Shown piece by piece: positions 81 through 60,407 of a stretch of 64,000 bases of DNA (the first letter of the stretch is position 1; every line of letters starts with the position of its first letter). The stretch comes from a virus (lineage: Duplodnaviria > Caudoviricetes), in the IMG/VR virus record IMGVR_UViG_3300028886_000028, positions 1 to 64,000 of that record. One strand, given 5' to 3'. Below the pieces are notes generated by a model. That model had not been told where the DNA came from, made no database searches, and worked only from the letters and a program-made list of their open reading frames with translations. The position numbers and the translations under genes are program-made.

Positions 81-617
81 ATGGCTAAACAAATAATTAG
101 ACTAACCGAATCAGATTTACATAAAATTATAAGAGAATCAGTTAAAAGAATCATCAAAGAAGAAGGTGAAACTTATGGAGACTGGCGTGATGATTATGAA
201 AAGTGGAGAAATCACATTGGAAATAATGATGATGGAAATGAATTATTGAAAAATTATATTGGGAGAGCTAAGTCAGAATTTGGAGGCGATGAAAGCGCAA
301 GAATAAGTGCGTTAAATAAGCATATGGCACAAAAAGACTCTGAAAGAGAACAAAGACTTTCAAAAACTGACCCTGATTTCCTTAATTGGGAAAAGGCTTG
401 GAGTAGAAAATATGATGCTGAAAATGGAATAAATAATAATGTTGATGCAGATACTTTTGATTTCGAAGCAGAAAAGGCAAAAGCAGCAGAGCAGCGTGGA
501 AGAAGAAGAACTAAAAAGCCTTTACCAAATACCGCTAAACAAACTCCATCAAAATTTAGTGGAAAATCAGAAGAAGAACTTGAACAATTAATGAAAGATA
601 TGGGATTTGCAAAATAA
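81..617 (+). CDS. Hypothetical protein with conserved N-terminal leader (putative internal head protein)
   Basis: N-terminus IIRLTESDLHKIIRESVKRIIKE is nearly identical to that of 60030..60407; the rest is unrelated. Confidence 0.75.
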   Translation: MAKQIIRLTESDLHKIIRESVKRIIKEEGETYGDWRDDYEKWRNHIGNNDDGNELLKNYIGRAKSEFGGDESARISALNKHMAQKDSEREQRLSKTDPDFLNWEKAWSRKYDAENGINNNVDADTFDFEAEKAKAAEQRGRRRTKKPLPNTAKQTPSKFSGKSEEELEQLMKDMGFAK

Positions 618-621
618 GCAT

Positions 622-654
622 AAAAAAGGCAGTAGTTTATCTACTGCCTTTTTT
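622..654. terminator. Bidirectional rho-independent terminator
   Basis: aaaaaaggcagtag-tttat-ctactgcctttttt between convergent genes. Confidence 0.85.
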
Positions 655-658
655 CATA

Positions 659-1093
659 TTAGTAATGTTTCATAACTTTCTTGTAATACCCAATAGATTT
701 TCTTTTCCATTGTTTTTCGTAGAAGCCGCAATTCCATTGTTTAATTGCTTTTTCTACATTCATTTCGGGATTAAAATGTTCCTGAGTTAATACGAACATT
801 TCTTTTGATTTTTGAACGTCATATCTATCCCTCAAGGTATAACGTTTTTTAGATTTTTTTTCTTTTAGTAAATTATTGCACTCTTTCACTAAAACTGGAG
901 TAATTTGTAGGATTCCGCAGCAATCTCCAATCGGATTATGCGCTTTAGGATTACCTCCGCTTTCAACTTTGATGATTGCGTTCATCACACGTTCCCATTT
1001 TTTAATTTGGCTTTCTGTTTGGCTATAAGCCATTGAAGGCATAATTATTGTTATAATTAGTGCCGTTAAAATTGTTTTAATTTTTCTCATCAT
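659..1093 (-). CDS. Lytic transglycosylase / lysozyme-like (SLT) protein with signal peptide
   Basis: AIIKVESGGNP catalytic Glu motif, GILQI motif, hydrophobic N-terminal leader. Confidence 0.8.
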   Translation of the reverse strand: MMRKIKTILTALIITIIMPSMAYSQTESQIKKWERVMNAIIKVESGGNPKAHNPIGDCCGILQITPVLVKECNNLLKEKKSKKRYTLRDRYDVQKSKEMFVLTQEHFNPEMNVEKAIKQWNCGFYEKQWKRKSIGYYKKVMKHY

Positions 1094-1104
1094 TTATAAA
1101 TTTA

Positions 1105-1180: not shown

Positions 1181-1192
1181 ATTAATATTCTT

Positions 1193-1564
1193 CTAATACA
1201 CGGACAATGAATAGTTTTTACTAATTTTATGATTATACCAGTCTTTTAAAACTTGTATTATGAATTTGTCTCTTTCTTCCCTATTAGGTAAAATTTTTTT
1301 AAATTGGTCTTGAATTATATAAAAGAGTTGAACGTCCGTTAGTGTTTTAACTACTTGTTTAAAATCATCAAGCCATGCAACCACTTGCTGTATTTTTGGC
1401 TTACCATCGTCGCCAATGATTGTTGCGGATGCTCTTGAAAAATTCTTGTCAAGGTAGTCTTTTACTGCCTTAACTTTTTCTCCCCATCCGCCAAACATTT
1501 CTTCAATGACAGCCTCTTCATAGAGAAGAGATTCTTTATTTTCGTTTATAATGATTTTCTTCAT
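1193..1564 (-). CDS. Hypothetical protein with leader-like N-terminus
   Basis: MKKIIINENKESLLYEE; ATATTTATA on the minus strand at 1586-1594, inside the upstream gene. Confidence 0.7.
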   Translation of the reverse strand: MKKIIINENKESLLYEEAVIEEMFGGWGEKVKAVKDYLDKNFSRASATIIGDDGKPKIQQVVAWLDDFKQVVKTLTDVQLFYIIQDQFKKILPNREERDKFIIQVLKDWYNHKISKNYSLSVY

Positions 1565-7600: not shown

Positions 7601-7654
7601 AATAAAAACTATATTTATATATAAATAATATAGTAATAATAAAATAGTTTAATT

Positions 7655-7923: not shown

Positions 7924-10900
7924 ATGAGAAAAACAGTTTATATAGGAGAAAATAAATTAGTAGATTTAAAAAATGCTATGACCAGTAATAATACTGGCCA
8001 TAGTATTTTCATGTCTGAAGATGTGCCCCCATATGAAGCAGATGAATTTGAAGCTTGTGGAGAGGGTGGCAATAATGATTTTTTCCATATAAGCAAAAAA
8101 AAGAAATTAACAGAAATAGAACAAAATGTAATAAATTTGGCGTTAAAGTTAAAGCCAAATATATTTGCAAGATGGGCAGTAGCTAACGAATATTATGCTA
8201 AATATTTCGAAAAAAAGAAATATGCCATTGAATATTATAATTGGGTTACCAGAACTAATAAAAGTTTTAGATTAATAGACACTGAAAAATATTTAGCAGA
8301 AAATAAAATATTAAGTGAAAATTCTTTTGAATCGTGGTTTGGCGATTCTATATTGATTGATTCAGAAGGTAAACCAATAAAAATGTATCATGGAACTAAC
8401 AAAAAATTTGATGCTTTTAGTAAAGATTTTATTGGAAGTAGTGGGTCAGGATGTTATGAGGGCTACGGGTTTAATTTTACTCCTGCTTGGAGCAGAGCAG
8501 TTTGTTATTCAAGTGGTGGCAATGTTATTGAAGCATATTTAAAAGCTAGCCATCCTTTGAAAAGTAATGAGCATAATATAACAGTCAATCAACTTGTAGG
8601 AATTTTAAGGAAAATAGACGAAGGACTTCCAATTACAGATACTTTAGTGCCAAATTATGAATCACCTAGATATGGAGAAAATTGGGATGAGAGATATTAC
8701 AATAGAGCGGTTAAAGTTGTTGCTAAAAATTTAATTGAATTTAATGAAGAATATGGTGATGCTGGTATATATGCCGGTATATGTGAAAGTTGTTCTGCTG
8801 ACCCAAAAAAAGTTATAAAGATTTTTGAAGAAATAGGTTATGATTCTGTTATTTTTTTTGAAGATGATGGCAGAATAAAAACAGTGATAGTTTTTGAACC
8901 AAATCAGATTAAATTAGTAGGCAACAAAACATTTAATTCTAATTCTGAAATTATGAGCGAAAATTTCAGAAGTAAAAATATAATAAAAGAGTCCCAGGAA
9001 TCAAAGTCCATTGCAGCAGCAAAGAAACTTGTGATGCAAAGGCTTAACTATAATGAACAAGAAGCTGATGAGTTCATTAGAATTAAACTTAGAAACGACA
9101 TACCAAGTTTAAAAACGCTACAAGGCAGCAAATTCATCCTTGGTGTGACAAGGATGTTTTGCGATGGTGAATTAATGACTGCTAATGACATTGGCAATCT
9201 TAATTCTACACTTAAGCTTGTTGCTTCTGATGCTCACATTAATGAGTATGACAGAAACCTAAATGGGATGTCTTGTCAAGAACTCGTTCAAAGGTTCGCA
9301 AAAGCAATGAGCGATAATCTTGAGGCTGAGAAAGCTGAAATCAATCAGATGGTGTTTGACACACCTTCGGATTATGAGATTGTTAGAATTGATTCTTTTG
9401 AACAAGCAGAGGAATATGGAGATTACGTGCCTTGGTGTGTAACACATGATGAAGAAATGTTCGATTCTTATACAAGTGACGGTATTAACCAATTCTATTT
9501 TTGCTTAAGAAATGGTTTTGAGGGTGTTAAAGAAGTACCATCTGAAGGTTGTCCGTTGGATGAGTACGGTTTGTCTATGATAGCAGTTAGCGTTAATGAG
9601 AATGGTATGTTAAACACTTGTACTTGTCGTTGGAACCATGACAATGGTGGTGATGACAGTATTATGAATGCAAAGGAAGTGAGTCAAGTAATTGGTATGA
9701 ATTTCTTTGAAGTATTTAAGCCAAACAACAAGTGGAAGGACTTGTTAACTAGTGTTATGCAGCGTCTTGAAAATGGAGAAAACCCAAGAAATGTGTTTGA
9801 CAATGTTGACGATTTCAGTGAAGGTTTTGCTGTGGTTGTACTTAATGACAAGTGGAATTTCATCAATCAAGAGGGTAGACTTATAAGTGACCAATGGTTT
9901 GATTATGCTGACACTTTCAGTGAAGGTTTTGCTAGGGTTAAACTTAATAACAAGTGGAATTTCATTAATCAAGAAGGTAGGTTTTTAAGTAACCAATGGT
10001 TTGATTATGCTTATTATTTCAGTGAAGGTTTTGCTGGGGTTAGACTTAATAACAAGTGGAATTTCATTAATCAAGAAGGTAGGTTTTTAAGTAGCCAATG
10101 GTTTGATGGTGTTGGTTATTTCAGTGAAGGTTTTGCTGTGGTTGTACTTAATGACAAGTGGAATTTCATCAATCAAGAGGGTAGACTTATAAGTGACCAA
10201 TGGTTTGATTATGCTGACAAATTCCGTGATGGTTTTGCTATGGTTAAACTTAATAACATGTGGAATTTCATTAATCAAGAAGGTAGGCTTTTAAGTGGCA
10301 AATGGTTTGATATTGTTGGCGATTTCAGTGAAGGTACTGCTAGGGTTGAACTTAATGGTAAAACATATGAACTTGACACTAGCGGTAATTTATCGTTAAT
10401 TAAGTCAAAGAATAAAAATAAGAAAATATTAGTTTCTGAAAACCAACTAAAAACAATTAAAGAGAATCTTGATTTGGAGGTTGATAGTTCTGAAATAGAT
10501 TTGTCTTCTTTTAAAAAGAAACATGAGTTAGTACCTAATATTTGGAATCCTGACGGAACGTTAAATTCTAGAGTTAGACTAAAATTGCTAGATATAGCTG
10601 ATGATTTTTGGGATTTCGTTAATATAACTTGGGTGAAAAGAAAAGGTATATTTTTAACAGGTTCTATATGTAATTTTAATTGGTCTAAATTTTCAGATAT
10701 TGATTTACATATAGTTGTTGATTTTTCTGAAATTGACGAAAGAGAAAATTTTGTACAAGAATATTTTAACTCCAAAAAAAATGAATGGAATGATGAGCAT
10801 TCTAATCTAAAAATTTTTGACTATCCTGTTGAACTTTATGTTGAAAATATAAATGCTAAAACAGAAACTGGTGGGCTATATGATTTAGAAAAAAATGAAT

Positions 10901-11625
10901 GGGTTAAAAAGCCTGATTCTGATAATATAAAACAAATAGGGTTAGATAAATATGAAATTAAAAATAAATCAGCAAAATTGATGACATTAATTGATAATTT
11001 GCATGATAAGTGTAACGAAACTGATGATGACGCTATTCTTAGAAAGATAATTATAAAATCTAAAGACCTGTTTAAAACAATAAAAGAAATGAGAAAATTA
11101 GGTCTAGAACGTAGTGGAGAGTCTGATTGCCTTAATGTAATTTACAAAGTGCTAAGAAGAACTGGTTATCTTGACAAACTTATCAATTTAAATAATGAAC
11201 TTTATGATAAGTTAAATTCAGTTTCAATTGATGAATCAACAGAAAAGAAAGTTATAAATCACTATTTTAATAAATTTATTACTTTAAATGAAGAAGTCGT
11301 TGCTGATGGAAATGCAAGTCATAACCCATTTAAACAAAGATGGAAACGTGAAAGAGAACTTCTAATAAATTATCTTTGTAATTATGGAGAAATTATGACA
11401 AGCAAAGAAAATGGAAAACAATATAAAGTTTTATATGATTCAATGTTGTCAAGCAGATTAGGAATTAATTATTGCATATGTATTCAATGGAATCCTGTTA
11501 CTATGAAGCCAGGCAATATTATTTATGTAAGGGCATTTGATAAATTTACTAGAAGAATTTTTAGACCTGAATTCGATACCCGTGGATTCGATAACGTAGC
11601 TGGTACTAGTGATGATATTTCCTAA
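7924..11625 (+). CDS. Multi-module (polyvalent) protein: ART-PolyVal-like, unknown WC-motif domain, WG repeats, Pol-beta nucleotidyltransferase, C-terminal domain
   Basis: FESWFGDS..GKP..MYHGT..G.GFNFT..NQIK; PWCVT; six FSEGFA..KWNFIN repeats; LTGS..N.NW..SDIDLH. Confidence 0.75.
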   Translation: MRKTVYIGENKLVDLKNAMTSNNTGHSIFMSEDVPPYEADEFEACGEGGNNDFFHISKKKKLTEIEQNVINLALKLKPNIFARWAVANEYYAKYFEKKKYAIEYYNWVTRTNKSFRLIDTEKYLAENKILSENSFESWFGDSILIDSEGKPIKMYHGTNKKFDAFSKDFIGSSGSGCYEGYGFNFTPAWSRAVCYSSGGNVIEAYLKASHPLKSNEHNITVNQLVGILRKIDEGLPITDTLVPNYESPRYGENWDERYYNRAVKVVAKNLIEFNEEYGDAGIYAGICESCSADPKKVIKIFEEIGYDSVIFFEDDGRIKTVIVFEPNQIKLVGNKTFNSNSEIMSENFRSKNIIKESQESKSIAAAKKLVMQRLNYNEQEADEFIRIKLRNDIPSLKTLQGSKFILGVTRMFCDGELMTANDIGNLNSTLKLVASDAHINEYDRNLNGMSCQELVQRFAKAMSDNLEAEKAEINQMVFDTPSDYEIVRIDSFEQAEEYGDYVPWCVTHDEEMFDSYTSDGINQFYFCLRNGFEGVKEVPSEGCPLDEYGLSMIAVSVNENGMLNTCTCRWNHDNGGDDSIMNAKEVSQVIGMNFFEVFKPNNKWKDLLTSVMQRLENGENPRNVFDNVDDFSEGFAVVVLNDKWNFINQEGRLISDQWFDYADTFSEGFARVKLNNKWNFINQEGRFLSNQWFDYAYYFSEGFAGVRLNNKWNFINQEGRFLSSQWFDGVGYFSEGFAVVVLNDKWNFINQEGRLISDQWFDYADKFRDGFAMVKLNNMWNFINQEGRLLSGKWFDIVGDFSEGTARVELNGKTYELDTSGNLSLIKSKNKNKKILVSENQLKTIKENLDLEVDSSEIDLSSFKKKHELVPNIWNPDGTLNSRVRLKLLDIADDFWDFVNITWVKRKGIFLTGSICNFNWSKFSDIDLHIVVDFSEIDERENFVQEYFNSKKNEWNDEHSNLKIFDYPVELYVENINAKTETGGLYDLEKNEWVKKPDSDNIKQIGLDKYEIKNKSAKLMTLIDNLHDKCNETDDDAILRKIIIKSKDLFKTIKEMRKLGLERSGESDCLNVIYKVLRRTGYLDKLINLNNELYDKLNSVSIDESTEKKVINHYFNKFITLNEEVVADGNASHNPFKQRWKRERELLINYLCNYGEIMTSKENGKQYKVLYDSMLSSRLGINYCICIQWNPVTMKPGNIIYVRAFDKFTRRIFRPEFDTRGFDNVAGTSDDIS
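9814..10380 (+). repeat. Six tandem 102-nt coding repeats (WG-type beta repeats)
   Basis: Units start at 9814, 9916, 10018, 10120, 10222 and 10324; units 1 and 4 are nearly identical. Confidence 0.9.
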
Positions 11626-18554: not shown

Positions 18555-20630
18555 ATGGCTAAAAATAAATTAACAGTCTTTCAAACATTGGAAAGGGCTT
18601 TAAAAGGCAATTTCACATCAGACCAAGGTTTTCAACCACATATTAATTCTTATGACATGTCTGGTGTTAATTCTGTGTTATATAAAACTCAGGATAAGGA
18701 CGATTATGAAAGGACTAAATTAGAATTACAGCAAAATCAATATCTGAAAGATAGATGGGTTAAAGCAAACGTTGATTTGTCTGTTACGGCATTTGCTGGT
18801 TTAACAAACGTCAAATTAATGTATCGTGATGCTGACCTTATGGACTCATTTCCAGAAATTGGTGCAGCACTTGATATTTGTGCTGAAGAGAGCACATTAA
18901 ATGGGGACAATGGGCAAATAGTAAACGTCTATTCAAAATCAGAAAGAATTAAGGCTATTTTGGAAGATTTATTTGTTAACAGACTTAACCTTCAAATAAC
19001 AGCACCAATGGTTATCCGTGGAATGTGTAAATACGGTAATCAATTCATGATGCTTGACATTGACAATAAATTGGGGGTTAAAGGGTGGAGGCAATTACCA
19101 GTATTCAATGTTGAAAGGCTTGAAAATGGTATAGCAAATCCTTACGGCAGCGGCCAAAGCCTTGCTATAAATAATACCACAACAGATAAGGAAGATTTAT
19201 CAACTAAATTTGTTTGGTTTGATGAGAATAATTCTCAAGTACCTTTTAGAAATTGGCAGATAGCGCATTTTAGACTGTTAACTAATTCAATGTGCCTTCC
19301 GTATGGTACGTCTTTTTTAAATTCAGCCAGACGTCACTGGAGGTTACTAAGCCTTATGGAGGATATGATGCTTATATATCGCCTTGAACGTTCAATAGAA
19401 AGGAGAGTATATAAAATATATGTAGGAGCAATTGATGATGCTGATGTTCAAGCATATGTTGAACAAGTCGCTAATAATTTTAAGCGAACTCCAATTGTTG
19501 ACCCTATGACTGGTCAGATTGATTTAAGGAAAAATATTTTAGACGTTTCACAAGACTTATTCATACCTGTAAGAGACCAATCTGCTCCAACTCCAATTGA
19601 CACGTTACCAGCTGCCCAAAATTTGACAGCTATTGATGATATTAAATACATTCAGAATAAAGTTCTTACTGCACTTAGAATACCAAAATCATTTTTGAAT
19701 TTCGAAGAAAATGCCGGAGAAGGTAAAAATCTTGCATTGATGGATATTCGTTTTACTCGTGTTATTAATAGGATACAGCAAGCATTTTTGATGGAGTTAA
19801 CAAAAGTTGCTAGCATTCATCTTTATCTTTTAGGATTTGAAGATGATTTAGCCAACTTTAGTCTTACCATGAATAATCCATCAACTCAAGCCGAGCAACT
19901 TGAAATTGATAATTTGCAGAAAAAAATATCAGCAGTTCGAGACGCAGTGTCAGACCCAGGAAATGGATTACCTGTAATGTCGCAAACAAGAGCATTGAAA
20001 CAAATAATGAAATGGTCAGATAAAGAAATTAAAGAAAATCTTGAAGAAATACGTCTTGAAAAAGGACTTTCTGCTGAACTTGAAAAAACCACACAGATTA
20101 TTAAGAGAACAGGTATATTCGACATCGTTGACAGGATGTATGGAGAGCCGGGAGCTGAATACCAAGAAGATGCACAAATGGGTGGGCCTGATAGTGGAAT
20201 GCCTGGAGGCGGAGGAATGCCTGGAGGCGGTGGTGGCTTTGGCGGAGGCCTAGATGATTTAGGCTCGCCTGGTTCTAATGAACAAGGAGATATACAAGGC
20301 GCTGAAGGTTCTGAACCTACAAATGAAATGGAAGGCGGGAATAATTCCGGCGAAACACAGCCAACTTCTCCACAAACAAATGAATTAAAATCAATAAAAA
20401 ACAAAAAAGTAATATCTGAAAATGCCGTGAAAGCAAATAATAAAGTGCTTGACAATATGTTTGAACAATACATTAATAAAATAGACAATAGAATGAAAAG
20501 TATTAAAAAGCCAGAAAGTATTGTGGAGAGAACTGACATTTATGATAAATCACTTTTAATAAACGAGGAATTTTCTAAAATGATAGATTCGTTAAACATA
20601 ATAGTAACTGAAGAAGAGACTGATGAATAA
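18555..20630 (+). CDS. Portal protein (T4 gp20-like)
   Basis: PEIGAALD, LMEDMMLIYRLER..ERRVYKI, D.FIP.R, IDTLP, L.AL.IP. Confidence 0.92.
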   Translation: MAKNKLTVFQTLERALKGNFTSDQGFQPHINSYDMSGVNSVLYKTQDKDDYERTKLELQQNQYLKDRWVKANVDLSVTAFAGLTNVKLMYRDADLMDSFPEIGAALDICAEESTLNGDNGQIVNVYSKSERIKAILEDLFVNRLNLQITAPMVIRGMCKYGNQFMMLDIDNKLGVKGWRQLPVFNVERLENGIANPYGSGQSLAINNTTTDKEDLSTKFVWFDENNSQVPFRNWQIAHFRLLTNSMCLPYGTSFLNSARRHWRLLSLMEDMMLIYRLERSIERRVYKIYVGAIDDADVQAYVEQVANNFKRTPIVDPMTGQIDLRKNILDVSQDLFIPVRDQSAPTPIDTLPAAQNLTAIDDIKYIQNKVLTALRIPKSFLNFEENAGEGKNLALMDIRFTRVINRIQQAFLMELTKVASIHLYLLGFEDDLANFSLTMNNPSTQAEQLEIDNLQKKISAVRDAVSDPGNGLPVMSQTRALKQIMKWSDKEIKENLEEIRLEKGLSAELEKTTQIIKRTGIFDIVDRMYGEPGAEYQEDAQMGGPDSGMPGGGGMPGGGGGFGGGLDDLGSPGSNEQGDIQGAEGSEPTNEMEGGNNSGETQPTSPQTNELKSIKNKKVISENAVKANNKVLDNMFEQYINKIDNRMKSIKKPESIVERTDIYDKSLLINEEFSKMIDSLNIIVTEEETDE

Positions 20631-20680
20631 TCAGTCTTTTTCTTTTAACATAAATATTTATTTATAAATTATATCGTAAA

Positions 20681-22477: not shown

Positions 22478-22504
22478 ATTATATTTATATATAAAAGAAA
22501 ATAT

Positions 22505-22756
22505 ATGATAATCAAAATAAATGAATCAATGTTTAAAAAATTACTTGAATATGTAGGCGATGAAGAAGAATTTGGAAGATATGATATTTCAAGTAATGAT
22601 TATATACCTGAGCTAGAAAGGAACAAAATAATTAACAAAAAAACTCATGGAACAGAGTTTAACAATAATTATGAAATTTCTGAGCCTGAATATATTGGCC
22701 AAGAAATAAATGACCCGGGGCCATATGCAGAATATAAAAGATACGATTTCAAATGA
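22505..22756 (+). CDS. Small protein with leader motif
   Basis: MIIKINESMFKKLLEY; late motif at 22481. Confidence 0.65.
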   Translation: MIIKINESMFKKLLEYVGDEEEFGRYDISSNDYIPELERNKIINKKTHGTEFNNNYEISEPEYIGQEINDPGPYAEYKRYDFK

Positions 22757-23589
22757 AAATAGTTTTACACGAAAATCAATTATTGCCTATACGTGAAGCG
22801 TTTCAGAATAGTTTTTCTTTTGAAACTCTTTCTTCTATTGGCTTAAATGCTAATATTGAAGATGGTAATAAAATGAGATATGATTATTGCATTAAACATC
22901 TAGGCAACCCGGTCGGTGAAGGCACTTCAAGAGCAGTTTTTACATTATCAGATAATTATGTTTTAAAATTGGCGTTTACTAACCCGTCCGCTATAATGAC
23001 AAGCATGGCAGCAGGAATTGAACAAAATAAACATGAGTATAATACATATAAAGAAATAAACTCTCCTTTACTCCCAAAAATTATTTATTGCGATAGAAAT
23101 TATTTTTATATTGTTTGCGAAAGTGTTATTCCAGCTGAAGAGATTGATTTTGAAAAGTTTTTGGGCATTCCATTTAGCAGAAAATGGAAACAAAAATCTA
23201 TAAAAGAACCAATATATGATAAAGAATCTGGTAAAATTAAAAAAGGCGATAAAACAATTGGTTTCAACAAATATTTTAACAATTTAAAAAATTATAATGA
23301 AACATATCTTGGCGAAACAGTTTATGATATATTAAATTATATAGACGCAAATTACATTCAAGATGAACCAATGTATGATAGAAATATTGAAAATACTATC
23401 AGAAATTCAGAATGGTTAACTGAATTGGTGAGTTTTATTAAAACAACAGGCACAAGTGATTTTTGCGATGTTGAAAATTTCGGAATTGTAAATCGTGATG
23501 GAAAGCCTATGATAGTTCTTCTTGATACAGGACTTGATTTAGATGTATGGGAAGATATTTTTGTAAAGCAAAAATCTGATGGCGCATAG
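22753..23589 (+). CDS. Protein-kinase-fold protein with leader motif
   Basis: GEGTSRAVF Gly loop, VLK, QNKHE, SDFCDVENFG, LLDTG; N-terminus MKIVLHENQLLPIRE. Confidence 0.7.
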   Translation: MKIVLHENQLLPIREAFQNSFSFETLSSIGLNANIEDGNKMRYDYCIKHLGNPVGEGTSRAVFTLSDNYVLKLAFTNPSAIMTSMAAGIEQNKHEYNTYKEINSPLLPKIIYCDRNYFYIVCESVIPAEEIDFEKFLGIPFSRKWKQKSIKEPIYDKESGKIKKGDKTIGFNKYFNNLKNYNETYLGETVYDILNYIDANYIQDEPMYDRNIENTIRNSEWLTELVSFIKTTGTSDFCDVENFGIVNRDGKPMIVLLDTGLDLDVWEDIFVKQKSDGA

Positions 23590-25001: not shown

Positions 25002-25036
25002 AAAAGCGAGATTCAGTTAAGAATCTCGCTTATTTT
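25002..25036. terminator. Bidirectional terminator
   Basis: aagcgagattc-agttaa-gaatctcgctt between convergent genes. Confidence 0.8.
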
Positions 25037-25733
25037 ATGATAGTAAAATTTTGTCAATTTTATTTAATTTTTCGTTTACCATTTTTTTATCTTTTGATTT
25101 TTCTTCTACGTATTGTTGTAATTCTTCTTTATGCCCTATATATGCGCCTGGGGTCGAAGGGTCACTCACGATGTCCCAACATATTAGCTCAAAATCGTCG
25201 CCTACTATTGTTTGCCCTAGTTTTTGCTCTACTGAACCTACACCGCGTGACGATACTCCAATTTTATATCCATTAATCAAATGATTAGCCGCCATATCTC
25301 CCATTGTAGAAACAATTCCAAGTTTCCTAAATCCTTCTGATATGTTAAGTTCAAGTTTTCCGACTAATGTTCTTCCTTCCCAATGTAGTTCAATTATATT
25401 ATGAGAAATCCTTCCCAAATCAATTGTTGATTCGGCTGGGTGGTTTAATTCCCCATATGCTCTTCTTTCGTCAATTTTTTGCTGATATATTTCTACTTGT
25501 TTTTTAAGAACTCTTTCAGGATAAACTCTGCCATTTGCATTTTTAATATCAAACTTTTGAAAAACGGCATCAACAATAAATGGGTAAGGCACATTCCATT
25601 CCCCATTTGTCATTGATTCGTATATTTTTTTATTGTTTGTTGATTCTATCATTGATATATAACCATCGTTTTCTATTAACAAACCAGTTCCATATTCGCC
25701 TTTTTTTATTTCTTTTAAATCTTTTTTATCCAT
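25035..25733 (-). CDS. Prohead maturation protease (T4 gp21-like)
   Basis: NANGRVYP, GELNHP, ISH, GVSSRGVGS, WDIVSDPS. Confidence 0.92.
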   Translation of the reverse strand: MDKKDLKEIKKGEYGTGLLIENDGYISMIESTNNKKIYESMTNGEWNVPYPFIVDAVFQKFDIKNANGRVYPERVLKKQVEIYQQKIDERRAYGELNHPAESTIDLGRISHNIIELHWEGRTLVGKLELNISEGFRKLGIVSTMGDMAANHLINGYKIGVSSRGVGSVEQKLGQTIVGDDFELICWDIVSDPSTPGAYIGHKEELQQYVEEKSKDKKMVNEKLNKIDKILLS

Positions 25734-25911: not shown

Positions 25912-27477
25912 ATGAAAAATAACGGTAAAATTAGAAGCAATTTTGTTAAAGAATCTTTATTAGAGTATAACAACCTTGCCAATACATTAAAAGAAAATAC
26001 CGAGAGTGCTGTTCGTGATTTACTTAAAGAAACAGTACTTGAGCAATATGCCAAAATCCTAACAGAAGATGAGGATGAGGATAATTATGATGTAGAGGAA
26101 GTGGATGGTACTGATTCTGTAAACACAAGCGAAGACGAAGAAGCAGTAGATGATGCTGCTGATGGAATGGACTCTGAGGATGCAGAAGGTGGTGATGAGT
26201 TGGAAGATGCTGATATGGAAGGTGAAAATACTGACGATGCCGGCACTGAAGATATTGCTGCTGATGGAGTTGCCGAAGACGAAGAAGGTGATGGATGGTC
26301 TGAGTTTGATAAATACAAGGTTTCAGATGACGAGTATGACTTCTCAAATGCGGAAGACGATGAAATCGTAAAGGTTTACAAACTTTTAAAAGATGATGAC
26401 CAAGTTGTTGTTACAAAAAATGATGACAAGGTTAACATCAAAGATAATGAGACTGGCGCTGAATATCTTATCGACTTAGGCGGAGATAACGAAGCAATTA
26501 ATACTGGGTCAGAAGAAGTAGATGATACTGTTGATGACTTTGGTGGCGAAGATGACTTCAACGATGAAGAAAGCTTCGAAGAAGATGATTTTGAAAACCA
26601 AGAAGATGAAGATATGAATGAATCAAGAATTTTTGAAATCGCATTAAATGAGTATAATTCTAACGTTGGTTATACTGATAACTATCAAAATAAAGATGTG
26701 ATGACAAATCCTGGAATGTCAGAGCCAGGTAAAAACGTTAATGACTGGGATAAAGGAGTTCCAAAAGACTCAAAAAAGCCTTGGTCAGGCAAAAAAGGAG
26801 ATAAGAGCGAAAATCAGCCATTTACAGCAGAAAAAGGTAAAACTGTCGAAGAAGAAGATGTAGTAGATGACGCAACAGTTGATGAATCAATTAGTAGAGC
26901 AATACAAGAATTGAAAACCAGACAAGAGCATACTGCAAATGTTGGTAGCACTTCAAGAACAGACGGAGATAATGGAAACCGTAGACGTAAAGGACGTAGT
27001 TTCCATACTGCACAGAATGGACAGGAAACCGGAACAGGAGATAATCCATATTCAAACAATTCTCCAAAAGATGTAAATGTTAATGTAAAGGTTGAGAGCA
27101 TTATTAAAAAAGCTAATAAAATTTTCGAGGAAAATAAACAGCTTAAAGGCGCTCTTATGAAATTTAAAAACACATTGGAAGAAGCAGCAGTAACCAATGT
27201 AAATCTAGGAAATATTATTAAATTAGTGATGGAAAATTCTACCACTAAAGATGAAAAGAAAGAAATTATTGCTAGATTTGGAAATGAAGCAAAAACTGTT
27301 GAGGCTTCTAATACATTATTTGAAAACATTTCACGCGACTTGAAGAAAAAATCAAAAATGAATATTGATGAAAGCAAAGAGTACGCAGTAAATGAAAACA
27401 AAATTAATGAAACACAAATCTATCGTTCAAATGATATTTTAAATTCATTAGATTTAATGCATAGAATTTGTAAGTAA
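25912..27477 (+). CDS. Prohead scaffold/core protein (gp22-like position)
   Basis: Acidic, directly upstream of MCP, C-terminal coiled coil, many [IL]xE sites. Confidence 0.7.
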   Translation: MKNNGKIRSNFVKESLLEYNNLANTLKENTESAVRDLLKETVLEQYAKILTEDEDEDNYDVEEVDGTDSVNTSEDEEAVDDAADGMDSEDAEGGDELEDADMEGENTDDAGTEDIAADGVAEDEEGDGWSEFDKYKVSDDEYDFSNAEDDEIVKVYKLLKDDDQVVVTKNDDKVNIKDNETGAEYLIDLGGDNEAINTGSEEVDDTVDDFGGEDDFNDEESFEEDDFENQEDEDMNESRIFEIALNEYNSNVGYTDNYQNKDVMTNPGMSEPGKNVNDWDKGVPKDSKKPWSGKKGDKSENQPFTAEKGKTVEEEDVVDDATVDESISRAIQELKTRQEHTANVGSTSRTDGDNGNRRRKGRSFHTAQNGQETGTGDNPYSNNSPKDVNVNVKVESIIKKANKIFEENKQLKGALMKFKNTLEEAAVTNVNLGNIIKLVMENSTTKDEKKEIIARFGNEAKTVEASNTLFENISRDLKKKSKMNIDESKEYAVNENKINETQIYRSNDILNSLDLMHRICK

Positions 27478-29637: not shown

Positions 29638-29641
29638 TAAA

Positions 29642-55618: not shown

Positions 55619-57697
55619 TTAATATGTTATAATATATGGAGTTTTCATCAATGATTTACCAGAAACTGATTGCCCATTAACCTTTCCATACTCTAACACA
55701 ATGTCAAATACTTCAATTTTCGCTCCATATGCGTTTACGCAAACTTCTTTTTCATCTTTTAGAGAATAACAATTACGATAAACTGTTTCTTTCCAATTTA
55801 TATCTTTTGGGTCTACCCAACATTTTAATTTTATCTCTGAATGCCCTTCTTTACCAAAACTGTTTCCACAATATGCTTCGCCTCGTCCTTCTTCCCAGGA
55901 AAAACAATTTCCTAAATCGTTATATGTATTTTTAAGATAATTAAAATAGTTTTTGCTTCCGAAATAGTTAAAATTAGGCGAATTAAAATTAGGTATGGTA
56001 ATATTTCTTTCTATGTAAACTAATCCTCTTTCATTAACAATCATATCAGACTCCATACCGTTATAGTCAAAATTTTCAATGAATTTTTCTTTTAATATTT
56101 CGTCAAATTTTCTATACCCATCATAAGTTAAAAAATCTTCTATACAGTCTATATCATATAAAATGTTTGTTTTGTTTTTGATATATTTTTCTATTATAGT
56201 GCATTCGTCATAATCATTAAATTCTTTTTTATATTCTTCATAACCTTCAAAGAATTCAAAAAAATCTTCATTAAACATTTCTTCTTTATAGCCATTAATA
56301 AATGATTCGCACACTAGAGATATAAAAGCATCTACATATTCATATTCATCTATATCATCTTGCATAGGTTCTATTTCTTCTTTTGCACGGTTTATAGCAC
56401 TTCCAATATTATATTCGTTCCATTCACTTTTAGGCAAAATTCCAGGTGTTCCAATATATTCAATGAAATCAACATAATTTTCCCAATTGTTTTTTTCATA
56501 ATATGCATTTCCATCGTTATCAAAATTGAAAACTAATTGGTCATGATATTCTTTTAAGCAAAGTAGTTGGCTTTCATTAACTATTATTTTTTTACTTCTT
56601 TTTATTGATTCAGAAATTGATGAAAGTGTTTTACTTCCGCCAACTATAAATATAGAAGATAAATCACCTCTTGGGTGAGCAACATCTAGTGCTTTATTGA
56701 TTATAACAATTGTTTCTTCAGGAGTCATGCCTTCTTTATATTCACATATAACCTTTTCTAATGTCGGTAAACCATCATCTGACCACGCATCACTTCCATC
56801 AGGCATACACATCCAATCATAAAAGCCAAGATAATCCATAAAATCATAGCAATTGTCTTTATTTGGCGTTCCAAATTTTTTTATTGGTTCATTAAAAAAG
56901 TTAGGATACATTTCAATAGCTTCTTCTAACTCATCTATTGGGAATACCGCAAGTTCAATATGACCAGCTAACTCACTATTAGCCCTTAATTTTGCCGTAT
57001 TATTTAAAATAATACCAATCCATTGATAAACATATTTTGTTGGAAAATGGATAAATTTACCAAATTTTACAAATTCAGACAATGCTTTTTTATACATATC
57101 AGGCTGTATAAGCGGAGTCCAATCCTGTTTTCCATTTGCATCATGAATAAAATCGCATAAAACATTCCATGTGTTGTTTTCCTCAAATGCATCATAATAT
57201 GGTAGCCAATCATTAGATTCTGTTAGCCTAATAGACGCATTGCCCATTTTAATGTCTTTATTTGTGTCTTTTGGCTTTGCTGGATTTTTTTCTAATTTTG
57301 GAACCTGTGGCACACATTTTACTTTTTTGACAGCAGTCCTCATTTTTCTAAGAGTATCATGCGCCCAATTTTTCATGTCATTACCACCAGGTAAAATATA
57401 TCCTAAATTTTTAGCATTAACATCGTCATCGTTAATACTCATATTTTTATATTCATGGTCTATTTTTTTTATATCAGAAAAAGACAATGTTTTATCTCCG
57501 TTGTGTATTTTATCTTTTTTATTAGACCTTTTGTTATAATCATCGTTAACAATAGAACTAGCTCGCTTAAATCCTTTTGATTGTTTATATTTGCCAAAAA
57601 GATTTAAGTTATTTTTTATTTTATTAACAAGTTTATCAGGAACCTTTACTTGCCTTTTGCCAAGTACTTTCCCTTCATCTTCTATTATTAGTGGCAT
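55619..57697 (-). CDS. Three-module protein with internal leader motifs; C-terminal module possibly an R-S-E ART fold
   Basis: IRLTES and KKIIVNESQLLCLKE at module junctions; YIER..CFSW..EKEV. Confidence 0.6.
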   Translation of the reverse strand: MPLIIEDEGKVLGKRQVKVPDKLVNKIKNNLNLFGKYKQSKGFKRASSIVNDDYNKRSNKKDKIHNGDKTLSFSDIKKIDHEYKNMSINDDDVNAKNLGYILPGGNDMKNWAHDTLRKMRTAVKKVKCVPQVPKLEKNPAKPKDTNKDIKMGNASIRLTESNDWLPYYDAFEENNTWNVLCDFIHDANGKQDWTPLIQPDMYKKALSEFVKFGKFIHFPTKYVYQWIGIILNNTAKLRANSELAGHIELAVFPIDELEEAIEMYPNFFNEPIKKFGTPNKDNCYDFMDYLGFYDWMCMPDGSDAWSDDGLPTLEKVICEYKEGMTPEETIVIINKALDVAHPRGDLSSIFIVGGSKTLSSISESIKRSKKIIVNESQLLCLKEYHDQLVFNFDNDGNAYYEKNNWENYVDFIEYIGTPGILPKSEWNEYNIGSAINRAKEEIEPMQDDIDEYEYVDAFISLVCESFINGYKEEMFNEDFFEFFEGYEEYKKEFNDYDECTIIEKYIKNKTNILYDIDCIEDFLTYDGYRKFDEILKEKFIENFDYNGMESDMIVNERGLVYIERNITIPNFNSPNFNYFGSKNYFNYLKNTYNDLGNCFSWEEGRGEAYCGNSFGKEGHSEIKLKCWVDPKDINWKETVYRNCYSLKDEKEVCVNAYGAKIEVFDIVLEYGKVNGQSVSGKSLMKTPYIITY

Positions 57698-57708
57698 ATT
57701 TTATTTAT

Positions 57709-57975
57709 TTAACGAACAATTCCACCACCCCATCCTGCACCGGTACTTGACCAAGTATTATCAGTTGTAAGGCGGCTAGAAATTTTATCAGCAGTAGGCA
57801 TTTTTCCATATTTTGGATTGCCTTCATCATCATGTATGGTTGCACTAATACCATTTTCAGTAGTATCACCATATTCTTTAACATCGCCATCCTCAAAATC
57901 AGGCGCTTCACTAGTATCTTCTATCAATTTAGTGAATAACCTCATTTGGCATTCAGTTAACTTTATTTTTTTCAT
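57709..57975 (-). CDS. Small protein with leader motif
   Basis: MKKIKLTECQMRLFTKLIE; late motif at 57995-58003(-). Confidence 0.65.
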   Translation of the reverse strand: MKKIKLTECQMRLFTKLIEDTSEAPDFEDGDVKEYGDTTENGISATIHDDEGNPKYGKMPTADKISSRLTTDNTWSSTGAGWGGGIVR

Positions 57976-58032
57976 TATCACATCTTTTATTATTTATAAA
58001 TATTTATTGATGATAAATAATATAAATTGTGA

Positions 58033-60033
58033 ATGGCTAATTTAAAAGACAATAATTATCATAATTTAAAAATTAGGGTAAATAAGGACGAATATTGGGA
58101 CTTTTTCATAAATAAAGACTATTATGGCCCTTTTAAATCAAATAGTAATAGCATGTATGATGAATGTTTAATATCATACATTGATGCTTCATTGTCTGAA
58201 TGCGTTAGCGGAGATACTTGGATTTATAGCACTAATAAATATAAATGGGAAAGTGCTTATACAACAAATAGTATATTAAATAATATAGGATATACTGGCG
58301 TTGATAATGGACTTGTTTCTTACAGAAAAGATAGAATAAGCAATAAAGATTTTTTTAATATATTTACAACCTCTAAATATGAAATTGATGGCGATGATAT
58401 TAGGCTTAAGTTACACGCTGTTAGTGGCAATACTTTACTTTACGAGTATCCACTGCATGCTGAAAATGGAGTAATAAAATTAAATGGTGGTTTTTATCAA
58501 GGATTTTTTAAAACAAAATGCGATGAATATTATATACTTCCATCTAAAATGGATGATAATGACACATGGGAATTTGAGTTTGTTTTAAATAAGTGCGAAC
58601 TCGAAAAAGAATCAAATAAAACATTAAATGATAAGTACCCAAATAATAAAGGAATATTTTTTTATTTAGGAACGAGAGCTGAAAATAAATGGATATATTT
58701 ATATGATAAAGAAGATATTGAAGGAAGGGAATCTTGTTTTACTTTATCATATGACGAATACATTGAAGATGCAAAAGTAAATAAAGAAGATTACATAATA
58801 GGTAATTTTTATGATTTGGACCCTGAATTTACAGAAACACCTCCACTAGATATTGATGATTATTTAAATTTTCAATATTATGATGAATCATACTATACGC
58901 CAAACGAGGAAGAACTGTTTTCTGACAATATAGAATGTGATGGACATAGTATATTAGATGATTATTTGGACTATGAAATAACGCCAAGGACTATAGACGA
59001 AAATCTACCTCATATAACTTTAGATAGTTGGTGCTGTGATATTGAAAAAAAGAAAAAAAAGGTAAAGCAAGTGTCATTTTTTAATGCATGCGGATGCGTA
59101 AAACAAGCATACGTAAAAGTTGATGTTGAAGATGATTCAAAATTATCTGGATGCGATTTATTTGGAGAAGGTGACTATATTGATGATTTTGATGGACTAG
59201 ATTATGATACCGATTATTGGGAACCTGAATTAAATATAACAGATTTTGAGTATGAGACAAACAATGGCTTCTTACTTACATCGGCTAATGATTACTATTT
59301 CTACACAGATAATAAATTTTTATTGTTCGACAGAACTTCTAAAGGATATACAATAAAAGATTGGGTAGAAGGTACACAAATGATGTATTTCGGCAAAAAA
59401 AATAAATTTAAAGATAATTTATTCATATTAATGAATAGAACGTCAACCGGCTATACAGTAAAAGACATTGACCAATTAAAAGATAAAGCAAACAATAAAT
59501 ATGATGATTTATATAATGACATATATAACAATGCATTTGCTTTGAGGATTAAAGATGATGGTTCAATAGGATATAGGTATTTGGTGTTTGATTGCGACGC
59601 TAGCAATAAAGGAAAATATACAGTAGAAGAAGGATATTCTTTCCCTAACGTCATAAAAGATTGCGAGTGGCATACTGTACACATCAAGATAAAATCGTTC
59701 TTCAGCTGCCTTAAAATATACTTCTACGTTGATGGAAAATTGGTGTATATAACAAAAGGCTTACCGAAATTTAATTTTCACGAATTAAATGACCTTTATG
59801 AAAAGCAAGAAGGAGTTCCATTCAATATTTCAATTGGCGGAGGAACACAAGGTTTGGCAGAAACTGTTTTAACTAATTACATGCTAGAGCCAACAAGAGT
59901 GTATCCATTAGAAGAAAACTTTGCTGGAACATTTATAGGGTATATGAAGTCATTTAAATTCTATAATTGTGGAATGGAATATATGAGAATATTGAATAAT
60001 TTTAAATATGAAAAAAATATGTTTAAAGTATGA
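58033..60033 (+). CDS. Putative structural protein with LamG-like beta-sandwich
   Basis: WHTV.I..YFYVDGKLV..ISIGGG..FIG.MKSFKFY. Confidence 0.6.
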   Translation: MANLKDNNYHNLKIRVNKDEYWDFFINKDYYGPFKSNSNSMYDECLISYIDASLSECVSGDTWIYSTNKYKWESAYTTNSILNNIGYTGVDNGLVSYRKDRISNKDFFNIFTTSKYEIDGDDIRLKLHAVSGNTLLYEYPLHAENGVIKLNGGFYQGFFKTKCDEYYILPSKMDDNDTWEFEFVLNKCELEKESNKTLNDKYPNNKGIFFYLGTRAENKWIYLYDKEDIEGRESCFTLSYDEYIEDAKVNKEDYIIGNFYDLDPEFTETPPLDIDDYLNFQYYDESYYTPNEEELFSDNIECDGHSILDDYLDYEITPRTIDENLPHITLDSWCCDIEKKKKKVKQVSFFNACGCVKQAYVKVDVEDDSKLSGCDLFGEGDYIDDFDGLDYDTDYWEPELNITDFEYETNNGFLLTSANDYYFYTDNKFLLFDRTSKGYTIKDWVEGTQMMYFGKKNKFKDNLFILMNRTSTGYTVKDIDQLKDKANNKYDDLYNDIYNNAFALRIKDDGSIGYRYLVFDCDASNKGKYTVEEGYSFPNVIKDCEWHTVHIKIKSFFSCLKIYFYVDGKLVYITKGLPKFNFHELNDLYEKQEGVPFNISIGGGTQGLAETVLTNYMLEPTRVYPLEENFAGTFIGYMKSFKFYNCGMEYMRILNNFKYEKNMFKV

Positions 60034-60407
60034 AAAAATTGATAAGATTAACAGAATCAGATTTACACAAAATAATAAAAGAATCAGTAAATAGAATTTT
60101 AAAAGAAGAAGAATACCGCATTCCAACAGGCGGTATGGATGTATACGCCTATGATTATGATAAGGCGCTTGAAAAAGCAAATTCGTTGGAAGATTGGGAT
60201 AGCATGATGGTAAATAGAAAAAAACGCAGCGATGTTAGTTATAATAATGGAATTTTAAATCATCCACAGCGTAATCAGCCATATGGCGGTTTGGGGGCAT
60301 CGCAATATGTTAATCCAGAACTTTATTGCAGGAATGATGATAATATACTAGACAGTCTTGAATCAGACGCTGAATACAGAAAAAAACAGCACGGCTTTCC
60401 ATTTTAA
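60030..60407 (+). CDS. Hypothetical protein with conserved leader
   Basis: MKKLIRLTESDLHKIIKESVNRILKE. Confidence 0.75.
   Translation: MKKLIRLTESDLHKIIKESVNRILKEEEYRIPTGGMDVYAYDYDKALEKANSLEDWDSMMVNRKKRSDVSYNNGILNHPQRNQPYGGLGASQYVNPELYCRNDDNILDSLESDAEYRKKQHGFPF

What the first reader, a model, noticed from the sequence alone, without database searches (positions are those of the whole stretch)
81..60407. Portable capsid-loading leader: a candidate system for packaging and protease-releasing diverse effectors
Seen: one peptide motif, roughly K-I-x-[LIV]-x-E-[SN]-[DQ]-L...[IL]-x-E, starts unrelated ORFs: 81 (IIRLTESDLHKIIRESVKRIIKE), 60030 (LIRLTESDLHKIIKESVNRILKE; DNA similarity to 81 stops right after KEE), 1564(-), 7924, 22505, 22753 and 57975(-). 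It also recurs internally at domain junctions (about 10420 KKILVSENQLKTIKE; about 57220 IRLTES; about 56570 KKIIVNESQLLCLKE). These genes lie behind the late motif or in operons that do; for 1564 the motif sits inside the upstream gene. Known: T4 internal proteins use an N-terminal capsid-targeting sequence removed by gp21, which cuts after Glu in [IL]-x-E, and a gp21 homolog is at 25035. Inference: this is a different, mobile targeting tag that lets the phage load arbitrary cargo (kinase, ART-like, NTase) into heads for injection.
Basis: partly seen in the sequence, partly recalled or inferred. Interest (0 to 1): 0.85.

Follow-up and report, generated by a model that had tools for sequence, protein, structure and literature searches.

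The report
Portable leader tag, rumen jumbo phage
A 401-kb phage from the cattle rumen puts the same 23-residue N-terminal helix, which ends in the cut site expected for its T4-type head protease, on 16 otherwise unrelated small late proteins, and metagenomes hold it on thousands of protein families; it is most likely an address tag that loads cargo into the capsid, as T4 does on a small scale, but neither packaging nor cleavage has been shown.

Summary
The window is the first 64 kb of a complete 401-kb T4-like jumbo phage from the bovine rumen.

- **Strong leader.** A near-invariant peptide, M(N)KK-[LI]-I-R-L-T-E-S-D-L-H-x-I-[IV]-K-E-S-V-x-x-[IV]-L-x-E, heads 16 genes in the genome, two of them in the window (81 and 60030). 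It heads 8-20 genes in each complete relative and matches 7,428 protein clusters in public data.
- **Where conservation stops.** It ends exactly at an invariant Glu preceded by L/I at P3. That is the T4 gp21 rule and resembles the predicted maturation site of this phage's own capsid protein.
- **Selection and expression.** Codons vary freely, so selection acts on the peptide. The genes follow the ATATTTAT late-type motif and never the host-type promoter.
- **Position.** In relatives, leader genes lie beside the S77 protease gene, in the slot of T4 gp67/gp68.
- **Loose motif.** The shorter K-I-x-[LIV]-x-E-[SN]-Q-L motif (7924, 22505, 22753, 57975, 1564 and two internal copies) is enriched at N-termini, but homology to the strong leader is not shown.

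Best reading (about 0.5): a capsid-targeting propeptide removed by the prohead protease, a large-scale variant of the T4 capsid targeting sequence. This scan has noted analogous tags on other T4-like jumbo phages.

The parts
81..617 (+). Strong-leader gene, 178 aa. The leader is residues 1-27 (bases 81-161). The cargo has no known family.
   Evidence: No Pfam or PHROG hit. The late motif lies at 54-61.
60030..60407 (+). Strong-leader gene, 125 aa. The leader is bases 60030-60107. It lies in a unit with 58033-60033, behind the palindromic late motif at 57996-58007.
   Evidence: orthologues and leader-only matches. The AF2 model shows the leader as a helix (residues 9-26), a low-confidence linker (27-34), then a helical cargo.
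22505..22756 (+). Loose-leader gene, 83 aa (MIIKINES..LLE). It sits in the head module between the portal and protease genes, the slot of T4 gp67/gp68.
   Evidence: The late motif lies at 22481-22488. The T4 gene order was confirmed.
22753..23589 (+). Loose-leader gene, 278 aa, kinase-like by lead only. The N-terminus MK-x-IKINESQ..RLFEA is conserved in 50 homologues.
7924..11625 (+). Polyvalent protein, 1233 aa. In order: loose N-terminal motif, ART-PolyVal domain, WG repeats, internal loose motif (bases 10420-10464, residue 835), then a nucleotidyltransferase-like C-terminal domain.
   Evidence: Pfam ART-PolyVal at 1.5e-19 and WG_beta_rep at 8.6e-32. PHROG 36119 matches residues 863-1097. 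An Atlas lead points to NTP_transf_2. Sequence.
57709..57975 (-). Loose-leader gene, 88 aa (MKKIKLTECQM..LIE).
   Evidence: The late motif lies at 57996-58003 on the minus strand.
1193..1564 (-). Loose-leader gene, 123 aa (MKKIIINENKESLL..VIEE).
   Evidence: The late motif at 1587-1594(-) lies inside the upstream ORF 1536-2186.
55619..57697 (-). Protein of 692 aa and unknown family. It has an internal loose motif at residue 371 (bases 56549-56593) and a bare IRLTES at residue 157 (bases 57212-57229).
25035..25733 (-). Prohead protease of the T4 gp21 family, the presumed processing enzyme.
   Evidence: Pfam PF03420 at 3.2e-22. PHROG 207 at 7e-43.
25912..27477 (+). Candidate scaffold (core) protein, 521 aa. 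It is acidic with helical ends, and carries invariant V-K-E-S, x-N-E-S and x-E-S sites.
   Evidence: It occupies the position of T4 gp22. Alignment with 6 relatives is; sequence. It has no family hit, so the role is inferred.
27515..29551 (+). Major capsid protein of the Gp23 family. The predicted maturation site L-I-Y-E|A is at residues 57-61 (bases 27683-27697).
   Evidence: PHROG 138 at 2.3e-67. The propeptide aligns with T4 gp23, whose F-L-T-E|A cut corresponds to the conserved LIYE|AT / LLKE|AT here.
18555..20630 (+). T4-type portal protein. With the large terminase (16618-18495) it marks the head module.
   Evidence: PHROG 213 at 1.3e-63 and PHROG 2 at 4e-41.
57996..58007 (.). Palindromic late-type motif ATAAATATTTAT serving the divergent units 57975(-) and 58033/60030(+). 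Other copies before leader units lie at 54-61, 7611-7618, 22481-22488 and 1587-1594(-).

Best explanation
The strong leader is an N-terminal propeptide that works as a capsid address tag. It has a short strand (KK-L-I-R-L-T) followed by an 18-residue amphipathic helix (E-S-D-L-H-x-I-V-K-E-S-V-x-x-I-L-x-E), joined to the cargo by a flexible linker.

The proposed mechanism has three steps:
1. Genes carrying the leader are transcribed from the phage's late-type promoters, together with the head genes.
2. The tag makes the proteins co-assemble with the scaffolding core of the prohead.
3. The S77 (gp21-type) protease cuts after the conserved Glu residues (L-T-E, [IV]-K-E and [LI]-x-E). This frees the mostly small acidic cargo inside the head, from where it can leave with the DNA.

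The shorter loose motif and the internal copies would be weaker or older versions of the same signal. In multi-module proteins they would mark the points where the protease separates the modules.

**Shown:** the tag, its modularity, peptide-level selection, late-motif linkage, restriction to T4-type jumbo phages, head-module position, and fit to the cleavage rule.

**Inferred:** binding to the core, cleavage, packaging and injection.
For: 1. **Sharp module edge at Glu.** In 468 distinct leader instances the information content is 3-4.3 bits from position -2 to 23. It then falls to 0.6 bits at position 24. Glu is 100%, 85% and 98% at positions 6, 15 and 23. Asp was not seen at positions 6 or 23. 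Position 4 is L in 98%, position 13 is V/I in 100%, and position 21 is L/I in 93%.
2. **Known T4 rule.** T4 gp21 cuts after L/I-x-E, and Asp at P1 blocks processing (PMC9026906).
3. **The phage's own capsid protein.** It keeps a T4-homologous propeptide. T4's F-L-T-E|A cut aligns with the conserved L-I-Y-E|A / L-L-K-E|A, close to the leader's I-L-K-E end.
4. **Selection is on the peptide.** Paralogous leaders have pS 0.68 against pN 0.22. Ser uses both TCN and AGY codons.
5. **Late expression class.** 8 of 14 strong and 5 of 12 loose leader genes have ATATTTAT directly upstream. For strong leaders against all other genes, Fisher p = 1.9e-4. None has the host-type TAnnTTTG, which 90 other genes have. 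The same motif precedes the portal, protease, scaffold and tail-like genes.
6. **Lineage.** All six complete relatives that contain a head module have the S77 protease, and each holds 8-20 leader genes.
7. **Synteny.** In six relatives, two to four strong-leader genes lie between the portal-side genes and the protease gene, and another lies next to the terminase gene. That is the slot of T4 prohead core proteins gp67/gp68. The acidic 106-aa g90888 is the orthologue of one of these genes.
8. **Structure.** The leader is a separate helix followed by a low-confidence linker. Indels cluster right after the final Glu.
9. **Multi-leader proteins.** They repeat [leader-cargo] units. 54% of internal leaders are preceded by E-[ST], against 17% background.
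10. **Cargo.** It is soluble, small (median 132 aa), without membrane segments, and includes NUDIX, HicA, HNH and ART domains. No replication or tail domains were seen.
Against: - No proteomic, structural or genetic datum shows packaging or cleavage. No cultured phage carries the tag: it is absent from 50,697 GenBank phage records.
- The tag is 23 residues long and nearly invariant across genomes whose scaffold proteins are only about 50% identical. The T4 targeting sequence needs only 10 residues and tolerates substitutions. That much constraint suggests a further or different partner.
- [LIV]-x-E is common in any amphipathic helix, so the fit to the rule is weak evidence on its own.
- The residues before internal leaders (N-E-S, D-E-S, Y-E-S) lack L/I at P3.
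- Single promoter-leader cassettes sit in Prevotella chromosomes, and 4 Prevotellaceae MAGs that hold single cassettes and were searched lack the S77 protease.
- The loose motif is not detectably homologous to the strong leader. In the kinase-like family it is simply a conserved part of the protein.
Confidence: 0.5

Rival explanations
1. The leader is a permanent functional helix of the mature proteins. It would be a docking or oligomerisation module that brings many late proteins to one conserved hub (a phage or host protein, or nucleic acid) outside the capsid, and it would not be removed.
For: - The 23 residues are almost invariant across thousands of families. That is more constraint than a loose targeting signal needs.
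- Copies inside proteins are frequent.
- Solitary cassettes exist in bacterial chromosomes without a phage head protease.
- The closest matches in the structure database are idealised designed helices.
Against: - The sharp end of conservation at an invariant Glu, with a flexible linker after it, and the absence of Asp at the Glu positions are not expected of a plain docking helix.
- The placement of leader genes beside the protease and scaffold genes and the exclusive late-motif linkage point to head assembly.
Confidence: 0.23
2. The tag addresses proteins to another machine than the prohead. One candidate is the phage-encoded ClpB/ClpA-like AAA+ protein (2321-4843), as a recognition or degradation tag. 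Another is a membrane or export route.
For: - An 840-aa Clp-type AAA+ protein is encoded in the window (PHROG 4871, 4.5e-204). It is present in the same six complete relatives.
- N-terminal tags are a common way to recruit substrates to such machines (general knowledge).
Against: - The co-occurrence is uninformative, because all six genomes are close relatives and share most genes.
- No leader gene lies near the Clp gene in a conserved way, whereas several lie beside the head protease gene.
- The tag is not hydrophobic and no cargo has membrane segments.
Confidence: 0.08
3. The conserved unit is mainly an expression and recombination cassette. It would consist of late promoter, 5' UTR and first codons, spread by recombination, with the peptide as a by-product.
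For: - A subfamily shares promoter and UTR almost exactly. The 42 nt upstream of the Segatella bryantii copy match the phage gene at 357795 in 41 positions, better than the synonymous sites of the leader itself.
- 54 of 105 leader genes from public contigs have ATATTTAT at about -30 or -45.
Against: - Synonymous sites are saturated while the peptide is kept (pS 0.68, pN 0.22).
- Half of the leader genes have no promoter of their own, and many copies are internal to proteins.
- The cassette probably explains how the tag spreads, not why it is conserved.
Confidence: 0.07

Closest known systems
Capsid targeting sequence (CTS) of phage T4 internal proteins IPI, IPII, IPIII (and Alt), removed by prohead protease gp21
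   Same: - A short N-terminal peptide is shared by otherwise unrelated proteins.
- It ends in L/I-x-E.
- The phage has a gp21-family protease, a Gp23-type capsid and a T4-type portal.
- The genes are late.
- The cargo includes an ADP-ribosyltransferase, as Alt is.
   Different: - There is no sequence similarity to the T4 tag.
- It is 23 residues with three conserved Glu sites instead of 10 residues with one.
- It is nearly invariant, whereas the T4 tag tolerates substitutions.
- It heads 16 genes per genome and 7,428 protein clusters overall, against a handful in T4.
- It recurs inside multi-module proteins.
- Packaging and cleavage are untested here.
T4 prohead core proteins gp67 and gp68
   Same: - Both are small proteins encoded between the portal and protease genes.
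- They are processed at L/I-x-E.
- gp67 has a helical N-terminus and an acidic tail, like the conserved ~110-aa leader protein (g90888 family) that lies beside the protease gene in relatives.
   Different: No detectable homology. In this window the slot holds the loose-motif genes 22505 and 22753 instead. A role in core assembly is only inferred.
Propeptides of inner-body and ejection proteins of giant phages phiKZ, 201phi2-1 and SPN3US
   Same: Many head proteins are processed after Glu by a gp21-related protease. Their propeptides carry redundant cleavage sites (PMC9026906).
   Different: Those propeptides are long, family-specific and cut at S/A-x-E. No single portable tag shared by unrelated proteins is described there.
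Polyvalent proteins of phages (Iyer, Burroughs, Anand, de Souza, Aravind 2017, PMC5512222)
   Same: The 7924 protein carries the ART-PolyVal domain plus further modules. That class is predicted to be packaged in the head and processed.
   Different: The class is defined by its domains, not by a targeting tag. The junction motif seen here is not part of its description.

Membership tests
T4-type capsid targeting sequence / internal protein system | A short N-terminal peptide shared by otherwise unrelated proteins | tested here: met
   There are 16 genes in the genome, 8-20 in each complete relative, and 7,428 clusters in public data. Nucleotide identity falls from 0.68 in the leader to 0.31 after it.
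T4-type capsid targeting sequence / internal protein system | The peptide ends in the prohead protease site (L/I-x-E, cut after Glu) | tested here: met
   By sequence only. Glu is 98% at the last conserved position, L/I is 93% at P3, Asp was not seen, and conservation ends there. The rule is taken from PMC9026906.
T4-type capsid targeting sequence / internal protein system | The phage encodes a gp21-family (S77) prohead protease with a Gp23-type capsid | tested here: met
   PF03420 at 3.2e-22. Gp23-like capsid protein and T4-type portal. All six complete relatives that contain a head module have the protease.
T4-type capsid targeting sequence / internal protein system | Sequence similarity to the T4 tag (first 10 residues of IPIII) | tested here: not met
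   The leader bears no resemblance to the T4 tag as I recall it (MKTYQEFIAE); the T4 tag was not fetched or aligned here. Nothing like the leader was found in GenBank phages, T-even phages included. It is an independent tag, not a homologue.
T4-type capsid targeting sequence / internal protein system | Late expression with the head genes | tested here: inconclusive
   Association with the ATATTTAT motif, which precedes the structural genes, and no host-type promoter. No timed transcript data exist. RNA-library contigs only show presence.
T4-type capsid targeting sequence / internal protein system | Tagged proteins are present in the virion and the tag is removed | not testable with these tools
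   This needs virion proteomics with N-terminal mapping. There is no cultured phage.
Polyvalent proteins (ART-PolyVal class) | ART-PolyVal domain combined with further effector modules in one phage protein | tested here: met
   In the 7924-11625 protein, ART-PolyVal scores 1.5e-19 against a cut-off of 31.2 bits (71.5 bits observed). It also has WG repeats and an NTase-like C-terminal module.

The most novel reading that the evidence does not exclude
One near-invariant 23-residue tag defines, from sequence alone, the injected proteome of a whole group of rumen Prevotella jumbo phages. That would be thousands of unknown small acidic protein families loaded into T4-type heads and delivered with the DNA, many of them counter-defence effectors. 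Host chromosomes such as Segatella bryantii DSM 11371 carry single late-promoter-plus-tag cassettes. These would be switched on only during infection and could place a host-encoded protein into progeny capsids.
Probability: 0.3. Interest if true: 0.85.

Novelty: new variant of a known kind. Interest (0 to 1): 0.62.

Why it matters
If the tag does load proteins into the head, several things follow.
- A simple sequence search would list the proteins these abundant rumen phages deliver into Prevotella. That is more than 7,000 families now without any annotation, and a rich source of candidate anti-defence proteins.
- It would show that the T4 internal-protein principle scales up to dozens of cargos per genome.
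- It would show that the principle has arisen with unrelated tags in different T4-like lineages.
- It would offer a compact, natural tag for loading foreign proteins into large capsids.

Even if the tag does something else, a 23-residue peptide this conserved on this many families is an unexplained and testable feature.

Tried and rejected
- **Complex prediction.** Leader (residues 1-36, alignment A2) with the candidate scaffold protein (alignment A4) gave no verdict, score 0.00. It says nothing either way.
- **Structure database.** A profile search of the leader found only designed helical repeats and chance hits.
- **Literature.** Full-text searches for six leader substrings found nothing relevant.
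- **GenBank phages.** tblastn of the leader protein and of the leader alone against 50,697 records found no true match. Megablast of the head module also found none.
- **Linking the two motifs.** The strong-leader profile gives only marginal hits (E 0.2-0.7) to a few loose N-termini. A NUDIX cargo occurs with either type, which is suggestive only.
- **RNA libraries.** Metatranscriptome contigs from cattle and sheep cover parts of the head module, including 22569-22769 and 23222-23582. They are contigs and may include DNA carry-over, so they show neither level nor timing.
- **Record G009.** This 317-kb record has 11 leaders and no S77. It also lacks the portal and has only capsid-gene fragments, so it is a fragment without the head module and not a counter-example.
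- **Clp-type AAA+ co-occurrence.** It was checked and is uninformative.
- **Caveat on gene counts.** Counts for the whole genome come from my own crude ORF picker, so promoter-class counts are approximate.


Full report
**What the window is.** The window is bases 1-64,000 of a 401,138-bp virus record. Its last 148 bases repeat its first, so the assembly closes on itself. Exact-word matches place it in bovine gut/rumen metagenomes. The window holds a T4-type head module:
- large terminase, 16618-18495;
- portal, 18555-20630;
- S77 prohead protease, 25035-25733(-), Pfam PF03420 at 3.2e-22;
- an acidic 521-aa protein in the place of the scaffold, 25912-27477;
- a Gp23-family capsid protein, 27515-29551.

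The nearest deposited phages share only about 40% identity in the capsid protein.

**The observation.** They fall into two classes.

The strong class is a 23-residue peptide. Its consensus is KK-[LI]-I-R-L-T-E-S-D-L-H-x-I-[IV]-K-E-S-V-x-x-[IV]-L-x-E. It begins 2-6 residues after the start codon. A profile built from it finds 16 loci in the genome, all at ORF starts and all on the + strand. The + strand carries 79% of genes. One ORF has a second, internal copy. Genes 81 and 60030 of the window belong to this class.

The loose class is shorter: [KR]-[ILV]-x-[ILV]-x-E-[SN]-[QK]-[LF] ... [IL]-x-E. It heads 7924, 22505, 22753, 57975(-) and 1564(-). It also recurs inside two large proteins, at residue 835 of the 7924 protein and residue 371 of the 55619-57697 protein. 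A relaxed pattern covering both classes hits 34 gene starts against 9.3 expected. The strong profile does not detect the loose copies at meaningful scores. I therefore treat their identity as one signal as a hypothesis.

**Scale outside this genome.**
- A word-based search with the 60030 protein returned its orthologues plus dozens of unrelated small proteins. These share only the first 25 residues, at 80-96% identity.
- A profile of the leader scored against 1.84 billion representative proteins gave 7,428 clusters at E <= 0.001 and 1,722 at E <= 1e-10.
- A degenerate DNA pattern found 97 stretches in IMG/VR, many on contigs of 295-413 kb.
- It found 21 stretches in species-representative genomes, almost all rumen Prevotellaceae bins.
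- Complete relatives carry 8-20 leader genes each.
- The tag is absent from 50,697 GenBank phage records and from the searched literature.

**Anatomy of the tag.** I aligned 468 distinct instances.
- Information content is 3-4.3 bits per position from two residues before the tag to its last Glu. It drops to 0.6 bits at the very next residue.
- The three Glu residues are 100%, 85% and 98% conserved. Asp was not seen at the first or last of them.
- Two residues before each Glu stands L (98%), V/I (100%) or L/I (93%).
- In an orthologous family the insertions and deletions pile up right after the last Glu.
- An AlphaFold model shows the tag as a helix (residues 9-26), then a low-confidence linker (27-34), then the cargo fold.
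- Between the paralogous tags of this genome, synonymous sites are saturated (pS 0.68) while non-synonymous change is low (pN 0.22). Ser is encoded by both codon families. The peptide, not the DNA, is under selection.

**Link to the head and to late expression.** Upstream regions show two motif classes:
- a host-type TAnnTTTG, before about 90 genes, including the DNA ligase gene;
- ATATTTAT, about 25-45 nt before the start of about 70 genes.

The second class precedes the portal, protease, scaffold and tail-like genes. Of 14 strong-leader genes in my gene set, 8 have ATATTTAT directly upstream (Fisher p = 1.9e-4 against the rest) and none has the host-type motif. Of 12 loose ones, 5 have it and none has the host-type motif. 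The remainder follow a gene that has it. In 105 leader genes from public contigs, 54 have the motif, peaking at -30 and -45.

All six complete relatives that contain a head module encode the S77 protease. In those six genomes two to four strong-leader genes lie between the portal-side genes and the protease gene. Another lies next to the terminase gene. T4 has its prohead core genes 67 and 68 in exactly that slot. In the window the slot holds 22505 and 22753. One of the conserved neighbours of the protease in relatives is the orthologue of this genome's acidic 106-aa g90888. It recalls gp67 in size and acidic tail.

**Fit to the protease rule.** T4 gp21 cuts after Glu in L/I-x-E, and Asp at that place blocks processing (PMC9026906). 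The capsid protein here has a propeptide homologous to that of T4 gp23. T4's F-L-T-E|A cut aligns with a conserved L-I-Y-E|A-T, which is L-L-K-E|A-T in a more distant relative. This is close to the I-L-K-E that ends the tag. The scaffold candidate keeps three invariant x-E-S sites, one of them V-K-E-S, the same tetrapeptide as in the tag. These agreements are suggestive, but [LIV]-x-E is common in amphipathic helices.

**Cargo.**
- Behind the strong tag the cargo is small (median 132 aa), mostly acidic (67% with net charge <= -3) and without membrane segments.
- Only about 8 of 148 sampled proteins have any Pfam domain: cREC_REC, NUDIX, HicA, HNH.
- Many proteins carry two to four [tag-cargo] units. 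54% of internal tags are preceded by E-[ST], with a mode ten residues before the Arg of the R-L-T-E core, against 17% background. 60 of 94 internal tags keep a Met.
The ART-PolyVal protein is confirmed by Pfam and belongs to a class predicted to be packaged (PMC5512222).
- Its C-terminal nucleotidyltransferase and the kinase-like 22753 rest on language-model and fold leads only.
- In the 22753 family the N-terminal motif is conserved in all 50 homologues found.

**Interpretation.** The best-supported reading is a capsid-targeting propeptide removed by the prohead protease. It is the T4 internal-protein principle with an unrelated, longer tag used on a much larger scale. I put this at about 0.5. 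The arguments against it are:
- the complete lack of physical evidence;
- the extreme conservation of the tag compared with the candidate partners;
- junction residues that lack L/I at P3;
- single cassettes in bacterial chromosomes without a head protease.

The rivals are a permanent docking helix (0.23), a tag for another machine such as the phage's Clp-type AAA+ protein (0.08), and a promoter-UTR-leader cassette conserved for expression and recombination (0.07). The last probably explains how the tag spreads. The 42 nt upstream of the Segatella bryantii copy match a phage copy in 41 positions. A complex prediction of tag with scaffold gave no verdict.

**Novelty.** The concept is known from T-even phages (PMC3012670). 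Earlier notes of this scan describe analogous but different tags on other T4-like jumbo phages, and the same idea on other windows of this genome. Those notes are unchecked and are not independent evidence. What is new here is this particular tag, its near-invariance, its reach (thousands of families in ruminant gut phages), its repetition inside multi-module proteins, and its presence as solitary cassettes in host genomes. I class it as a new variant of a known kind.

Noticed in passing
L126 6932-7195 (= L136 9933-10196), Segatella bryantii DSM 11371 chromosome: A solitary late-motif + UTR + strong-leader gene (87 aa) lies in a roughly 3-kb low-GC islet (28-32% against about 42%) next to an rRNA operon, with no phage genes around. 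Its 42 nt upstream match the phage gene at 357795 in 41 positions. This is a lead to the host range of these phages, and an oddity in itself.
   Followed up: partly
L130 5795-6823(-) (= L137 9796-10824), Prevotella sp. MA2016: A strong leader with its Met sits inside a 342-aa ORF, at about residue 214. The ORF lies in a low-GC patch beside an ORF whose zinc-ribbon-like N-terminus (CPYCGEHHC) recalls an IS transposase; that ORF was not annotated here.
   Followed up: no
window 50-61, 20650-20661, 25757-25768, 57996-58007: The late-type motif often occurs as the perfect palindrome ATAAATATTTAT. At 25757-25768 (protease/scaffold) and 57996-58007 (57975/58033) it lies between divergent genes, so one site could serve both strands.
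   Followed up: partly
whole genome; window examples 4955 (host-type) and 18555 (late-type): There are two upstream motif classes. One is the Bacteroidota-like TAnnTTTG (TTGTATATTTGC, TACCTTTGCA), before about 90 genes. The other is ATATTTAT, before about 70 genes. They differ essentially in the base after TTT.
   Followed up: partly
window 11692-13431: This very acidic 579-aa late protein has a C-terminus (..AISESVKRVLKKNR) resembling the second half of the leader. It has GLTES near its N-terminus. It may be another core or scaffold-like protein.
   Followed up: no
window 27515-29551: The capsid protein has 678 aa against 521 in T4 gp23. The extra part is a roughly 300-residue stretch (about residues 100-400) between the conserved N-terminal block and the HK97-like part. 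It is conserved in relatives.
   Followed up: no
window 29591-30628: An endonuclease-like gene with a host-type promoter sits directly after the capsid gene, as segD does after gene 23 in T4. Its paralogues occupy different places in the head modules of relatives, as expected of a mobile homing gene.
   Followed up: no
window 2321-4843(-): An 840-aa ClpA/ClpB-like AAA+ protein (PHROG 4871, 4.5e-204) is conserved at 53-62% identity in six complete relatives.
   Followed up: partly
G030 contig C1 (GTDB bin reached through L121): A 5-Mb Bacteroidales bin holds 13 leader copies, 11 of them on contig C1 together with an S77 protease. The contig looks like a jumbo-phage contig binned with a bacterial genome.
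   Followed up: partly
G000 401073-401138 and window 81-146: The record's ends overlap by 148 bases, so the leader of gene 81 appears twice in genome-wide counts. I counted it once.
   Followed up: yes
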